Positions 837 to 55,697 are shown, counted from the stretch's first letter. The stretch is DNA of 64,000 nucleotides from Malacoraja senta (GCA_038087875.1 CM075988.1:24492001-24556000); one strand, 5' to 3'. Numbers and translations are program-made. Notes: generated by a model not told the origin, from the sequence alone.

Positions 837-1105
837 CCCCGTGGTCACCCCTGTCAACTGACCTCAGTCAGGCAAACGACAACAAACAGAGACAGCAGCA
901 GAATTAACAACGAACGAACAACAACAGCTTGCAGCCTTAATGCAACCTCAGTCGCCGCAGCTTGGCGCCAACCCGGAGCATGCACCCTTTTTAGGGCGGC
1001 CACCTACGGATGTCGAACCGGATGGCGTCATCCTGCTGCAGCTGAATGTAAGGATTCAGCTGGAGGGCGTTACATAACTTCTGCTGCCTCAAATGCAAGA
1101 AGAAG
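837..1105 (+). mobile_element. Short non-autonomous retroposon (family C) with (GAA)n tail and 5'-truncated HDV-like ribozyme
   Basis: Direct repeat AACATTATCTGGACCT at 821-836 and 1106-1121; tail CAAGAAGAAG; internal hairpin CAGCTGAAT-GTAAGG-ATTCAGCTG at 1039-1062. Confidence 0.8.
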
Positions 1106-1206
1106 AACATTATCTGGACCTTTTCCAAGTTCAGAATATTGTACATTATATCGGGGTAACCAAAACAGAGTGTGGTCCCCTGGATAGACACAAAATGCCG
1201 GAGTAA

Positions 1207-6272: not shown

Positions 6273-6563
6273 CAAAAACACAAGGCAGGACACAGAAATA
6301 CCAAAATAAAGAGTAAAATGCTCAAAATCCTCAGCAGCATCATTGGTGGGAAAATTACATTTTTTCAGAACTGGGAACAGTTAGAGAGCCTTTTCCAACA
6401 AATAGAGTCAGGCTTTGATGGAGCAACATTAGTCAACGTTTCTTCATGAATAATGCGATCGGAATTTGCAATTTCATTTTCCAATTGATAGTTATAAATG
6501 ATTATATTTTTGTGTGATGCGGACCAAATGTTAAATGGAGTTAAGATCAGCCATGATGGACAA

Positions 6564-6871
6564 CACCATTACATCGATGATCCCATGGACGTCCCTGGCC
6601 AGGACCTGCCCCGAAAGCAGTGGACAACCCTTAACCGCTTGAGGACAGGCATCGGACGCTATGGAGTAGCGATGAAGAGGTGAGGCCTCGTGGACAGCGC
6701 CTCCTGCGAGTGTGGGGACCCAACACAGACAGTGGAGCACATAGTCACCAGTTGCCCCAAACACCGGCCACCGAATGGTGAACGAGGTCTGATTGACCTG
6801 GACGATGACACGTTGGCCTGGCTCGCCTCAATGGAGCTGCAGGTCTAAAAGACACACGACAGAAGAAGAAG
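6564..6871 (+). mobile_element. 5'-truncated Vingi/Ingi-clade LINE 3' end
   Basis: Translates PGQDLPRKQWTTLNRLRTGIGR...*GLVDSASCECGDPTQTVEHIVTSCP...LQV* (C-terminal CCHC knuckle); (GAA)n tail; TSD ATGATGGACAA at 6553-6563 and 6872-6882. Confidence 0.8.
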
Positions 6872-6937
6872 ATGATGGACAAACTGGTCTAACCCATTTG
6901 CCATTCTCTTGGACTCCTACTGTAAGAACATGTCTTG

Positions 6938-12213: not shown

Positions 12214-12377
12214 TCTTCTTCTTATCGAGTCCATACACAAGATTAGAAGTTGTTCAGCCAGAGATGAAAACACTTCTCGGCAATTGCATACAATGGTGTC
12301 TGTCTTGCGCTTCTTGTTCATCTTGTACGTGGTGGTGGAAAGATTGGTGGAAACAGGGCCACTCTTTCCTTGACCCC
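12214..12377 (-). mobile_element. Short (GAA)n-tailed retroposon, family B, with 11-nt deletion in the ribozyme
   Basis: TSD AGCTTGGATAG (12203-12213) / AGCTTGGATGG (12378-12388); homologous to 54907-55063. Confidence 0.85.
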
Positions 12378-24749: not shown

Positions 24750-24802
24750 GGGGTGGGAAATTGCAACCTTCACGTGGTCCGCCCTGTTTCGACGAATGCA
24801 AT
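24750..24802 (+). ncRNA. Minimal HDV-like ribozyme fold
   Basis: P1 GGGGTGG/CCGCCCT, P2 ATTGCA/TGCAAT, P3 ACC/GGT, L3 TTCACGT, minimal P4 region with TTCG, J4/2 CGAA. Confidence 0.8.
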
Positions 24803-24895
24803 CAACCTGGCTGGCACAATCAAATAAGATCAAATAGAACAAGTTGTCCTACAACTTTAGGCTGTGCACGCCATACGCAAGAAGAAGAAGAAGAA
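24750..24895 (+). mobile_element. Short (GAA)n-tailed retroposon, family A
   Basis: Starts GGGGTGGG and ends CATACGCAAGAAGAAGAAGAAGAA; homologous to 46722-46860; no clear TSD. Confidence 0.85.
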
Positions 24896-24933
24896 CCATG
24901 GCAGCAACATGGTGGCTGCGTGTGTTCTTCATG

Positions 24934-46414: not shown

Positions 46415-46710
46415 AAAGATACAGAGTTGAAACAGACCCATTGACCCATTGGCCCACTGACCAACGACCACTGCACACGAGCTCTGTGTTATCACATCTT
46501 TGCATCCTACACACTAGGGACAATTTACAGAAGCCAATTAATGTACAAACCCGCACGTCTTCAGAATGTGGGTGGAAACCAGAGCACCCAGAGAAAACCC
46601 ATGTGGTTATTGAGAGAATGTACAAACTCCATACAGACAGAACTTGTGGTCAGGATTGAACAAAAGTCCCTGGCACTGTAAGGCACCAACTCTCCCACTG
46701 CACCACTGTG
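46415..46710 (-). mobile_element. HE1-type V-SINE, diverged
   Basis: V domain and tail in reverse. Confidence 0.7.
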
Positions 46711-46721
46711 TCTTTGGATTG

Positions 46722-46860
46722 CTTCTTCTTCTTGCGTATGGCGTGCACAGCCTAAAGTTGTAAGACAACTTGTTCTGTTTGATCTTCTGTTTGTGCACGC
46801 CAAGTTGATTGCATTCGTTGAAACAGGGTGGACCACGTGAAGGTTGCAATCTCCCACCCC
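46722..46860 (-). mobile_element. Short (GAA)n-tailed retroposon, family A, full length
   Basis: Perfect TSD TCTTTGGATTG(C) at 46711-46721 and 46861-46871. Confidence 0.9.
46807..46860 (-). ncRNA. Minimal HDV-like ribozyme fold
   Basis: GGGGTGG GA GATTGCA ACC TTCACGT GGT CCACCCT GTTTCAAC GAA TGCAATC; P1 (G-U at +1), P2 and P3 all pair. Confidence 0.85.
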
Positions 46861-54575: not shown

Positions 54576-54906
54576 CTTGTAGGCCTTGGTGACTTCTCTC
54601 AGTGCCTTCTCCCTAAACATTATACCCTCACTGAGAGTCTGGTGGGGTGCAGTATTCTGCTCCTATTTACAAGCCGGCTCTCAGCAGTTTAAAATCCCCG
54701 ATTACATTATCTTCTTTGCTCTGATCACTCAGTTAAGCTCTGTCTCACAGGCTGAAGGATTAAAATAATTTCAGACCATAACAACTATTTCCAGACTCTC
54801 AGCGAGCTGGTGCTGAGAATAATTCTAGTTAACAATGAAACCTACCACTAGATTTCTGAAGGGAACTGGAAAAAGACTTGAAGAAACTTGAAGTGATAAG
54901 AGACAG

Positions 54907-55063
54907 TCTTCTTCTTATCGAGTCCACACACAAGATTAGAAGTTGTTCAGCCAGAGCTGAACACACTTCTCAGCATCTGCATACAATGGTGTCTGTCTTG
55001 TGCGTGGTGGTGGAAAGATTGGTGGAAACAGGGCCGCGACATGAACGCTCTTTCCTTGACCCC
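54907..55063 (-). mobile_element. Short (GAA)n-tailed retroposon, family B
   Basis: TSD ATAAGAGACAG (54896-54906) / ATCAGAGACAG (55064-55074). Confidence 0.88.
55012..55063 (-). ncRNA. Minimal HDV-like ribozyme fold
   Basis: GGGGTC AA GGAAAGA GCG TTCATGT CGC GGCCCT GTTTCCAC CAA TCTTTCC: P1 6 bp, P2 7 bp, P3 3 bp. Confidence 0.75.
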
Positions 55064-55697
55064 ATCAGAGACAGATAGTGAATGGGATTAACTGGGTTTA
55101 GAGTTGTGCAGCATGGAAACAGATTCTTCAGCTCATAAAGTCCAAGCCAACTGTTAAGCACCCAGTTACATTAAACCAACACTAGCCCAGTTTATATTCT
55201 CCCTGCATCCCATCATTTCCAAAGGATGTGCTAGTCGGTAGGTTATGCGTCTGATGTACATTGCACAAGAGGGAGGTAGGTGAATCAGGGGGCATTGATG
55301 GATATTTGGGTGGGAATAAGTGATAGGCAGTGAGACTGATACATTTGCTCTGGTAGCTGACATTGATTCAATAGGCCAAATGACAAATGAAATGTGGGAA
55401 ATATACACTTCTTCCACCCCAAAATGTACAGAACTCCATTCCAAACGCACACAATGTGCAACGTTCTCCCAAAACACACACTCTCCTTCTGAAGAGTTCA
55501 TGTTTCCCCACACCGACCAACATTCCCCATCTACACTAGTCCCACCTACCTGCGTTTGGCTCATTTCACTCTAAACCCATCCCATGTACCTGTCTATATG
55601 TGTCTTAAGCATTTCAATAGTACCTGCCTCAACTACATCCTCCGGGAACTCGTTCCATACACCCACCACTCTTGCGTAAGTTATGATGTGAAGTTAT

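What the first reader, a model, noticed from the sequence alone, without database searches (positions are those of the whole stretch)
54907..55063. Second, sequence-unrelated mini-retroposon (family B) with the same ribozyme fold and fully covarying stems
Seen: minus strand GGGGTC-AA-GGAAAGA-GCG-TTCATGT-CGC-GGCCCT-GTTTCCAC-CAA-TCTTTCC. Relative to family A, P2 changes from GATTGCA/TGCAATC to GGAAAGA/TCTTTCC and P3 from ACC/GGT to GCG/CGC. L3 (TTCAYGT), the +1 G-U pair and the C-N-A-A strand are kept. Compensatory change on this scale argues for a selected structure. The element has an 11-bp TSD and a (GAA)n tail. The 3' half reads LYADAEKCVQLWLNNF*, possibly the last codons of a parent LINE ORF (inference), which would make it an internal-deletion derivative.
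Basis: partly seen in the sequence, partly recalled or inferred. Interest (0 to 1): 0.85.

Follow-up and report, generated by a model that had tools for sequence, protein, structure and literature searches.

The report
Mini-retroposon headed by HDV-like ribozyme
A 157-base mobile-element copy, one of roughly 1,800 in this animal genome, starts with a very small RNA fold of the hepatitis-delta self-cutting type that probably trims its own front end; the principle is known, but this stripped-down version closely resembles the ribozyme in the mammalian CPEB3 gene.

Summary
The sequence and its segmentation are as described. Window 54907-55063 (-) is a complete 157-nt retroposon with a 10-of-11 target-site duplication and an (AAG)3 tail.

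Its first 52 nt fit the HDV-like double pseudoknot, with no P4 helix. That 52-mer occurs 1,772 times in the 1.94-Gb genome at up to 3 mismatches, against 0 for the reversed pattern. Copies start at the predicted cleavage-site G. Rfam's best match is the CPEB3 ribozyme at 27-28 bits, below the cut-off of 35.

Five ribozyme versions keep the fold with different stems: mini-families A, B and C, and the 5' ends of LINE families C, D and E. Within family B there are no compensatory changes, only decay.

Corrections:
- A and B are not unrelated.
- The supposed ORF tail lies in a stable 3' stem-loop domain.
- No parent LINE for B was found, though sister family C is a LINE's first 212 nt joined to a separate short 3' segment.

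Verdict: a real bipartite non-autonomous LINE with a minimal HDV-like ribozyme. Cleavage itself is untested.

The parts
54907..55063 (-). Whole family-B element: 157 nt, made of ribozyme, spacer, 3' stem-loop domain and tail
   Evidence: Contigs of other sequencing runs cover only 54906-55065.
55064..55074 (-). Upstream target-site duplication CTGTCTCTGAT, abutting G1
   Evidence: It matches the downstream copy at 10 of 11 positions.
55058..55063 (-). P1 5' strand GGGGTC. G1 at 55063 is the predicted first nucleotide after cleavage and forms a G-U pair with 55030.
   Evidence: Rfam alignment.
55049..55055 (-). P2 5' strand GGAAAGA, preceded by J1/2 AA at 55056-55057
55046..55048 (-). P3 5' strand GCG
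55039..55045 (-). L3 TTCATGT. The commonest form in the genome is TTCACGT; the T at 55041 is a CpG decay.
55036..55038 (-). P3 3' strand CGC
55030..55035 (-). P1 3' strand GGCCCT
55019..55029 (-). Joiner GTTTCCACCAA. GT is the inferred P1.1 partner. A short linker stands where P4 would be. J4/2 is CCAA, with the presumed catalytic C at 55022.
   Evidence: Alignment to the CPEB3 model. C42, A44 and A45 are invariant in the 25 copies of A2. Assignment of the catalytic C is an inference.
55012..55018 (-). P2 3' strand TCTTTCC (pseudoknot partner)
54996..55007 (-). 5' strand of the 12-bp outer helix of the 3' domain. In other copies the spacer around it holds 1-3 units of a 9-nt repeat.
54938..54970 (-). 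Inner hairpin of 6+8 bp with loop TCTG. It contains most of the supposed 'ORF tail'.
54924..54935 (-). 3' strand of the outer helix
54907..54916 (-). (AAG)3A tail
54896..54906 (-). Downstream target-site duplication CTGTCTCTTAT

Best explanation
Family B is a bipartite, ORF-less, non-autonomous non-LTR retroposon. Closest analogues are the R2 SIDEs and NARTc.

Proposed mechanism:
1. The element has no recognisable promoter of its own, so it is probably transcribed as part of longer host or neighbouring transcripts (inferred).
2. Its first 52 nt fold into a minimal, P4-less HDV-like double pseudoknot that cleaves just 5' of G1. This gives the template RNA a precise 5' end (inferred from fold, covariation and the positions of copy 5' ends; cleavage not shown).
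3. The 3' stem-loop domain plus the (AAG)n tail are recognised in trans by the reverse transcriptase of one of the co-resident compact APE-RT-CCHC LINEs that end in the same (AAG)n tail. Those LINEs carry HDV-like ribozymes at their own 5' ends. Target-primed reverse transcription then makes full-length, TSD-flanked copies (inferred).

The window copy is a slightly decayed insertion with one CpG change in L3, not a master copy.
For: Fold:
- The descriptor fits at nt 1, with 0 of 20,000 shuffles doing so.
- Among Rfam's HDV-like families, only CPEB3 matched B at E <= 10. It scored 27.0 bits in this copy and 27.9 bits in the commonest form, with P1, P3, L3 and J4/2 aligned. A 19-nt run reads the same as the model consensus.

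Comparative support:
- Five versions (A, B, C, D, E), each at nt 1 of its element, keep P1, P2 and P3.
- Compared with B, at least one other family differs on both sides at 7 of 7 comparable P2 positions, 2 of 3 P3 positions, and P1 positions 4-6.
- C scores 33 bits on the HDV-F-prausnitzii model with P4 aligned.
- Two LINE-D 5'-end variants, GGGGGAG...CTCCTCC and GGAGGAG...CTCCTCT, both pair.

5' ends: of the 24 copies in which the script located a ribozyme 5' end, 13 have an exact TSD of 7 nt or more ending 0 nt (9 copies) or 1 nt (4 copies) before G1.

Abundance and youth:
- 1,772 matches against 0 in the control, at least 100 of them exact.
- The 3' 80 nt are 99-100% identical in all 40 scored hits.

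Machinery:
- LINE-D has APE and RT domains, a C-terminal Cys/His motif and an (AAG)n tail. Its 3' ends are 98-99% identical in the 39 listed hits other than the window's own.
- LINE-E also ends in an AAG tail.

Bipartite origin is shown for sister family C.

3' domain: z = -3.95 for B and -3.31 for A, with the same architecture.

Against: - No cleavage assay and no RNA 5'-end data exist.
- No Rfam family reaches its gathering score, either in the whole window (0 hits) or locally (27-28 bits against 35).
- Within family B there is no compensatory change: 0 pairs, and 93.5% of cells paired against 93.8% in shuffles. All covariation evidence therefore rests on five lineages.
- The element lacks P4.
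- The nested MFE fold pairs GGAAA of P2 with TTTCC of the joiner, a competing structure.
- LINE-D's version is less canonical: G1-C in one variant, and AC rather than GT after P1'. It scores only 19.9 bits.
- No LINE shares B's 5' or 3' sequence. The trans-mobilising partner is inferred only from the common tail and a weak likeness of the last bases before it.
- This window copy carries a T in L3, so its own activity is unknown.
Confidence: 0.8

Rival explanations
1. The conserved 5' pseudoknot is real but is kept for another job, not for self-cleavage. Candidates are an internal promoter at the DNA level (as Pr77 in L1Tc), a binding site for the LINE protein, or protection of the RNA end.
For: - In L1Tc the same 77 nt act as both promoter and ribozyme (PMC3383444, abstract and passages).
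- R2 protein binds the ribozyme region (PMC6765202, passage).
- The mini-elements have no other visible promoter; ARAGORN finds no tRNA-like head.
- Cleavage is untested.
Against: - The conserved unpaired positions are those of catalytic HDV-like cores as aligned by Rfam: L3, the G-U at +1, and C-N-A-A before P2'.
- Stems covary while these positions stay fixed.
- Copies begin exactly at G1, which is what cleavage predicts.
- These roles are not exclusive of cleavage.
Confidence: 0.1
2. Family B is an ordinary SINE or a decayed LINE fragment, and the pseudoknot reading is a coincidence of a G-rich 5' end.
For: - A loose descriptor also hit about a dozen unrelated places in the 64-kb window.
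- There is no Rfam hit at gathering score.
- There is no within-family covariation.
Against: - 0 of 20,000 shuffles fit at nt 1.
- Five independent stem sets share one architecture, always at element nt 1.
- HDV-type Rfam models are the top hit for B, C, D and A.
- There is no tRNA-like head.
Confidence: 0.03
3. The direction is reversed. A cellular CPEB3-type ribozyme was captured by a retroposon, so family B is a retro-copied host RNA rather than a LINE-derived 5' end.
For: Only B matches the CPEB3 model, through identical P3, L3 and most of P1'. No LINE with B's 5' end was found.
Against: - The co-resident LINE families C, D and E carry their own HDV-like ribozymes at nt 1.
- A and B are distant homologues over the whole element.
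- Family C shows the LINE-to-mini route.
Confidence: 0.04

Closest known systems
R2 SIDEs (short internally deleted elements) of Drosophila
   Same: ORF-less elements made only of the LINE's 5' HDV-like ribozyme and a 3' segment recognised by the LINE machinery. The 5' end is set by self-cleavage of a co-transcript (PMC3774820 and PMC6765202, passages read).
   Different: SIDEs insert site-specifically in 28S rDNA and use the restriction-like-endonuclease R2 machinery. Family B is dispersed, with variable TSDs and an (AAG)n tail. Its likely partners are APE-type LINEs, and its ribozyme lacks P4.
L1Tc / NARTc (and RIME / Ingi) of trypanosomes
   Same: A dispersed APE-type LINE and its bipartite non-autonomous derivative share a 5'-terminal HDV-like ribozyme (PMC3383444, PMC5786205, passages read).
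   Different: L1TcRz is 77 nt and has a P4 (PMC3383444, figure legend). L1Tc has an RNase H domain. The host is a protist with polycistronic transcription. B is 52 nt and P4-less, in a 1.94-Gb animal genome.
Mammalian CPEB3 ribozyme (Rfam RF00622)
   Same: It is the best Rfam match. P3, L3 and most of the P1 3' strand read the same as the model consensus over 19 nt, followed by the same UGU and a C-N-A-A-U junction.
   Different: The score is below the gathering cut-off (27-28 against 35 bits). B has no P4, a different P2 and a 6-bp P1. It is a repeat of about 1,800 copies, not a single intronic locus.
Minimal (P4-less) HDV-like ribozymes, including phage theta ribozymes
   Same: A double pseudoknot without the P4 domain.
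   Different: In the passages read of PMC10879173, minimal forms came from metagenomes, and nearly 99% of hits were in Caudoviricetes phages, often next to tRNAs. Here the minimal form heads a eukaryotic retroposon.
Vingi-clade LINEs and their internally deleted derivatives
   Same: [quoted passage not shown] LINE-D is about 3.2 kb by my estimate, and has APE, RT and a C-terminal Cys/His motif.
   Different: Clade membership of the LINEs here was not tested, because no reference sequences are on hand. PMC5786205 does not list Vingi among the clades with a known 5' ribozyme.

Membership tests
HDV-like self-cleaving ribozymes | Nested double-pseudoknot order P1-P2-P3-L3-P3'-P1'-(P4)-J4/2-P2' | tested here: met
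   Descriptor scan: P1 6 bp, P2 7 bp, P3 3 bp, L3 7 nt. 0 of 20,000 shuffles fit at nt 1.
HDV-like self-cleaving ribozymes | G at +1 closing P1 with a G-U wobble; C-N-R-A junction with the catalytic C before P2' | tested here: met
   G1-T34 and C42-C43-A44-A45, aligned to the corresponding CPEB3 model positions. That these features are defining is established knowledge recalled by me.
HDV-like self-cleaving ribozymes | Stems supported by compensatory change among homologues | tested here: met
   Met between five families. Not seen within family B: 0 compensatory pairs in 25 distinct copies.
HDV-like self-cleaving ribozymes | Curated Rfam score cut-off of any HDV-type family | tested here: not met
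   0 hits at gathering score in the window. Best is RF00622 at 27.0-27.9 bits against 35.
HDV-like self-cleaving ribozymes | Site-specific self-cleavage | not testable with these tools
   Indirect only: copies start at G1.
Mammalian CPEB3 ribozyme (RF00622) | Single conserved locus in a CPEB3 intron, with a P4 helix and a score at or above 35 bits | tested here: not met
   1,772 dispersed copies, no P4, and 27-28 bits. It resembles the family but is not a member.
Bipartite non-autonomous LINE (SIDE / NARTc type) | No coding capacity, flanking TSDs, and a LINE-type 3' tail | tested here: met
   157 nt, variable TSDs and an (AAG)n tail. The same tail occurs on LINE-D and LINE-E.
Bipartite non-autonomous LINE (SIDE / NARTc type) | 5' and 3' parts identical to the ends of an autonomous LINE | tested here: not met
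   - No LINE with B's ends appeared among the loci examined.
- For sister family C the 5' part is met: mini-C nt 1-212 lie upstream of APE-coding hits.
SINE with a pol III head (tRNA / 5S / 7SL) | A small-RNA-derived 5' head | tested here: not met
   ARAGORN found 0 genes in 54600-55400. Rfam gave no tRNA, 5S or 7SL match at E <= 10.
Vingi clade (for the partner LINEs) | RT phylogeny placing the element beside Ingi, and no RNase H domain | not tested
   Only APE and RT were confirmed by Pfam, on three ORF pieces. No clade reference sequences are available.

The most novel reading that the evidence does not exclude
The mammalian CPEB3 intronic ribozyme descends from the 5' end of a vertebrate retroposon of this lineage. 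On this reading, a ribozyme-headed LINE or bipartite derivative inserted in the intron and was co-opted.

Family B would then be the closest non-mammalian relative found so far. It would also show that P4-less 'minimal' HDV-like ribozymes are a natural, highly amplified module of animal retroposons, not only of phages.
Probability: 0.15. Interest if true: 0.85.

Novelty: new variant of a known kind. Interest (0 to 1): 0.6.

Why it matters
- The element gives a natural 52-nt, P4-less HDV-like ribozyme with about 1,800 genomic copies. Four sister versions have different stems. This is a ready-made covariation series for a very small self-cleaving RNA.
- It extends ribozyme-headed LINEs and their bipartite parasites to compact APE-type LINEs of a large animal genome.
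- It suggests why such LINEs spawn ORF-less derivatives so readily: the 5' end is self-defining.
- Its near-identity to the CPEB3 core makes the origin of that mammalian ribozyme testable by comparison.

Tried and rejected
1. **RNA evidence.** The look-up of sequencing runs listed no holder on record as RNA. The four runs laid were Logan contigs only, labelled 'RNA?' by guess. They show the element's boundaries and its presence in runs of three other coded organisms, but nothing about expression or RNA 5' ends.
2. **Parent LINE for B.**
   - The 3' 80-nt query gave 40 hits, and 30 loci were cut from them. The script's motif search located the 3' core in 28 of these 30 loci. Of these, 26 are mini-elements, L034 is 5'-truncated, and L018 is a B copy split by an insertion with inverted ends.
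   - The 3' ends of LINE-D and LINE-E differ from B's.
3. **Family C pattern.** An exact pattern built from the window's family-C copy found nothing. That copy proved to be 5'-truncated and mutated.
4. **Cross-family alignment.** MAFFT alignment A1 misplaced B's gaps, so it was not used for pair counts. A script table was used instead.
5. **L084-L086.** These gave only a wobble-rich descriptor hit, which I regard as chance.
6. **ORF-remnant reading.** Rejected as unsupported; see the first-reader field.
7. **tRNA-like head.** None found.
8. **Earlier findings of this scan.** Three look-ups returned nothing.
9. **Papers not held.** Ruminski 2011, Kojima 2011, Webb 2009 and Webb & Luptak 2011 could not be read. 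Their content is cited only as relayed by papers I did read.
10. **Literature searches.**
   - A search for drz-style names of vertebrate ribozymes returned 0 papers.
   - Searches combining HDV-like, minimal, retrotransposon, SINE and vertebrate listed no paper on a vertebrate P4-less retroposon ribozyme.
   - Repbase itself could not be searched.

Full report
**What is there**

The parts, in order, are:
- an upstream target-site copy CTGTCTCTGAT (55074-55064);
- the element itself, starting GGGGTC at 55063 and ending in AAGAAGAAGA (54916-54907);
- a downstream target-site copy CTGTCTCTTAT (54906-54896).

The duplication matches at 10 of 11 positions, and 8 nt are exact.

The window lies in a 1.94-Gb assembly of 6,182 contigs. 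It is an animal-type genome full of LINEs, SINEs and Tc1-like transposons. I did not try to name the organism.

**It is a high-copy, young retroposon**

- The whole 157 nt has 1,135 first-look candidates. The 40 scored are 91-100% identical over the full length.
- The commonest form of the first 52 nt has C where this copy has T in L3. It occurs 1,772 times at up to 3 mismatches (864 forward, 908 reverse), against 0 for the reversed pattern. The 100 rows listed are all exact matches.
- The last 80 nt are 99-100% identical in all 40 scored hits.
- Copy lengths range from 156 to 182 nt. By eye, copies carry one to three units of a 9-nt repeat in the spacer.
- Logan contigs of three runs, labelled with three other coded organisms, cover only 54906-55065. 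That is the element and not its flanks.

**The 5' end is at the predicted cleavage site**

My script located a ribozyme 5' end in 24 copies.
- In 13 of the 24, an exact duplication of 7 nt or more ends 0 nt (9 copies) or 1 nt (4 copies) before G1.
- Two of the nine, L016 and L031, share their flanks and are one duplicated locus.
- By eye, several others, including the window copy, reach G1 if one mismatch is allowed.
- In six further rows my motif did not find the 5' end. These are mutated, truncated or interrupted copies.

Family A in the window behaves the same way: its duplication CAATCCAAAGA abuts GGGGTGG.

**The fold**

A descriptor for the HDV-like double pseudoknot parses the first 52 nt as follows:

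| Part | Sequence |
|---|---|
| P1 | GGGGTC / GGCCCT, with G1-T wobble |
| J1/2 | AA |
| P2 | GGAAAGA / TCTTTCC |
| P3 | GCG / CGC |
| L3 | TTCATGT |
| Joiner (11 nt) | GTTTCCACCAA |

- Anchored at nt 1, the descriptor was met by 0 of 20,000 shuffles.
- There is no P4 helix.
- A looser version of the descriptor also hits about a dozen unrelated places in the window. The fold alone would therefore not be convincing.

**Rfam**

- At gathering thresholds Rfam finds nothing in the window.
- In a local search of 54850-55150 at E <= 10, the only ribozyme match is the mammalian CPEB3 ribozyme. It scores 27.0 bits against a cut-off of 35, with E = 2.7e-5 for that 301-nt search.
- A copy with the commonest form scores 27.9 bits.
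- P1, P3, L3 and the junction before P2' are aligned. Nineteen consecutive letters (AGCGUUCACGUCGCGGCCC) read as in the model's consensus line, followed by the same UGU.

**Covariation comes from sister families, not from copies of B**

Twenty-five distinct B ribozyme copies were aligned without trouble (alignment A2).
- 93.5% of pair cells form standard pairs, the same as in shuffles (93.8%).
- No pair has changes on both sides.
- The changes are mostly CpG decay. The middle P3 pair is broken in 7 of 25 copies.
- This is what dead copies of a young family should look like. It says nothing for or against the structure.

The evidence lies between families. I found five ribozyme versions, each at nt 1 of its element:

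| Version | Where | P1 | P2 | P3 | L3 |
|---|---|---|---|---|---|
| A | mini-element | GGGGTGG / CCACCCT | GATTGCA / TGCAATC | ACC / GGT | TTCACGT |
| B | mini-element | GGGGTC / GGCCCT | GGAAAGA / TCTTTCC | GCG / CGC | TTCACGT (commonest form) |
| C | mini-element and LINE-C 5' end | GGGGCTC / GAGCCCT | TGTTGTCG / CGACAACA | ACC / GGT | TCCCCGT |
| D | LINE-D 5' end | GGGGGAG / CTCCTCC | AAAGACA / TGTCTTT | GCC / GGC | TCTACGC |
| E | LINE-E 5' end | GGGAGAG / CTTTCCT | TGTCGGCA / TGCCGATA | ACC / GGT | TTCTCGT |

- C has a real P4, CTGAC / GTCAG.
- Compared with B, at least one other family differs on both sides at 7 of 7 comparable P2 positions, 2 of 3 P3 positions and P1 positions 4-6. All remain paired.
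- Shuffles of each 5' end met the descriptor 0-3 times in 20,000.
- C scores 33.1 and 32.6 bits on Rfam's HDV-F-prausnitzii model (cut-off 44), with P1, P3 and P4 aligned. D scores 19.9 bits. A scores 16.5 bits. All are below the cut-off.
- LINE-D's 5' segment recurs 35 times at up to 3 mismatches, against 0 in the control. Two variants both keep P1 paired, and one of them has the canonical G1-U.
- In at least nine cases the D segment lies about 400 nt upstream of an APE-coding hit on the same strand (my comparison of coordinates).
- Two decayed copies, A at 24750 and E in L087, fail the strict descriptor.

**A and B are related, not unrelated**

- The ribozymes share 35 of 52 positions, nearly all the unpaired ones.
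- The remaining 83 and 105 nt align with a score of 49, against a shuffle mean of 23.7 (sd 6.8, maximum 44 of 300).
- A pattern built only from the shared unpaired segments, with free stems, matches 3,740 places and 0 in the control. Almost all the 100 listed are family A. The free N in C-N-A-A takes all four bases.

**The 3' half is a structured RNA domain**

- Nt 57-140 of B fold into a 12-bp outer helix enclosing a 6+8-bp hairpin: -37.6 kcal/mol, z = -3.95, with 0 of 200 shuffles as stable.
- Family A's 3' part has the same architecture with other sequence, z = -3.31.
- The reading LYADAEKCVQLWLNNF* lies across this hairpin. The frame is open through the whole element (my reading).
- I see no likeness to the C-termini of LINE-D or LINE-E. 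I treat the ORF-remnant idea as unsupported.
- The domain is more likely the part recognised by the reverse transcriptase (inference, by analogy with LINE and SINE 3' stem-loops).

**The LINEs**

- The window holds a 5'-truncated 3' end of LINE-D at 6563-6872.
- LINE-D has an APE domain and an RT domain and a C-terminal Cys/His motif.
- Its 3' UTR is very short, followed by an (AAG)n tail.
- The 39 listed 3' ends other than the window's own are 98-99% identical.
- One copy, L075, is complete at its 5' end. It starts with the D ribozyme inside a Tc1-like transposase frame, about 75 nt before the ORF's first ATG.
- From I estimate a length of about 3.2 kb with a single ORF.
- LINE-E ends in an AAG tail as well.
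- The clade was not determined. The features fit what I read about Vingi in PMC13708176 (compact, single ORF, no RNase H). Membership is untested.

**Bipartite origin is shown for family C, not for B**

- The window's family-C copy (837-1106, with a 16-bp duplication) is 5'-truncated inside L3.
- Its nt 1-212 match, at 91-92%, 36 of the 41 listed hits, all on small contigs. Those I compared by coordinate lie some 230 nt upstream of APE-coding hits on the same strand.
- Three of the hits (on C1, C5 and C6) cover essentially the whole 270 nt.
- Mini-C is therefore a LINE's first 212 nt joined to a separate 3' segment of about 58 nt.
- For B no such LINE was found. Most loci with B's 3' end are mini-elements. 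L034 is truncated. L018 is a B copy interrupted by an insertion with inverted ends.

**How it most likely works**

The element is probably read through from outside promoters. No tRNA-like head is present. The proposed steps are:
1. The ribozyme cuts 5' of G1.
2. The 3' domain and tail recruit the reverse transcriptase of a co-resident (AAG)n-tailed LINE.
3. Target-primed reverse transcription yields full-length copies with variable duplications.

Shown here: the anatomy, the copy number, the 5' boundaries, the between-family covariation and the existence of the LINEs. Inferred: cleavage, read-through transcription and which LINE mobilises B. The last bases before the tail are somewhat alike in B and LINE-D by eye, which is a weak pointer only.

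**Comparison with what is known**

[quoted passage not shown] Bipartite ORF-less derivatives are reported for RTE, Ingi, Vingi and R2 (PMC5786205, passages).
- R2 SIDEs and NARTc are the direct analogues (PMC3774820, PMC6765202, PMC3383444, passages).
- Different here are the 52-nt P4-less core, the host and the likeness to CPEB3. In the passages I read of PMC10879173, minimal P4-less forms came from metagenomes and almost wholly from phages.
- My literature searches listed no paper on such a vertebrate element. Repbase and several key papers could not be consulted, so prior annotation cannot be excluded.

**Verdict**

The finding is real and mostly correctly read. It is a new variant of a known kind.
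- Confidence in the ribozyme-headed bipartite retroposon reading is 0.8.
- The boldest reading still open is that the CPEB3 ribozyme descends from this retroposon lineage. I put that at about 0.15.
- The shared L3 and P3 could also be convergence within a tightly constrained core. Only B, and not A, C, D or E, matches the CPEB3 model.

Noticed in passing
window 12214-12377 (-): A second family-B copy. Its ribozyme has lost P3 and L3 by an internal deletion (GGGGTCAAGGAAAGAGTGGCCCTG...). Its duplication is CCATCCAAGCT / CTATCCAAGCT.
   Followed up: partly
window 46724-46860 (-) and about 24750-24896 (+): Two family-A copies. The pattern of shared unpaired segments matches 3,740 places genome-wide. 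The P1 partner of T5 alternates between A and G among the listed copies, so the pair is kept either way.
   Followed up: partly
window 837-1106 (+), duplications at 821-836 and 1107-1122: A family-C mini-element truncated inside L3 of its ribozyme. Full-length relatives carry a complete HDV-like ribozyme with P4 (L081-L083).
   Followed up: yes
window 6563-6872 (+): The 5'-truncated 3' end of LINE-D: a C-terminal Cys/His motif, a stop codon, a 13-nt UTR and an (AAG)n tail.
   Followed up: yes
L076-L080 (small contigs C1421, C5848, C4688, C4845, C2607): LINE-C copies on many small unplaced contigs share the same roughly 80 nt of upstream flank. They begin AGGGCTC, AGCGCTC or AGGACTC instead of GGGGCTC. 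This looks like one insertion amplified within a larger repeated unit, or a site-specific insertion.
   Followed up: no
L018:869-1600 (+): A family-B copy interrupted by an insertion of about 550 nt bounded by inverted repeats, like a miniature DNA transposon.
   Followed up: partly
L075:1-2622: The full-length LINE-D copy sits inside a Tc1/mariner-like transposase frame.
   Followed up: no
L088:189-220: The first 16 nt of LINE-E (GGGAGAGATGTCGGCA) are present twice in tandem at the 5' junction.
   Followed up: no
window 46600-46720 (-): Directly downstream of the family-A copy lies a repeat that I recall as resembling tRNA-derived SINEs of cartilaginous fishes. This is recall and was not tested.
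   Followed up: no
window 55051-55055 with 55024-55028 (-): In the nested MFE fold, GGAAA of P2 pairs with TTTCC of the joiner. This is a possible misfold competing with the ribozyme. It is not possible in family A.
   Followed up: no
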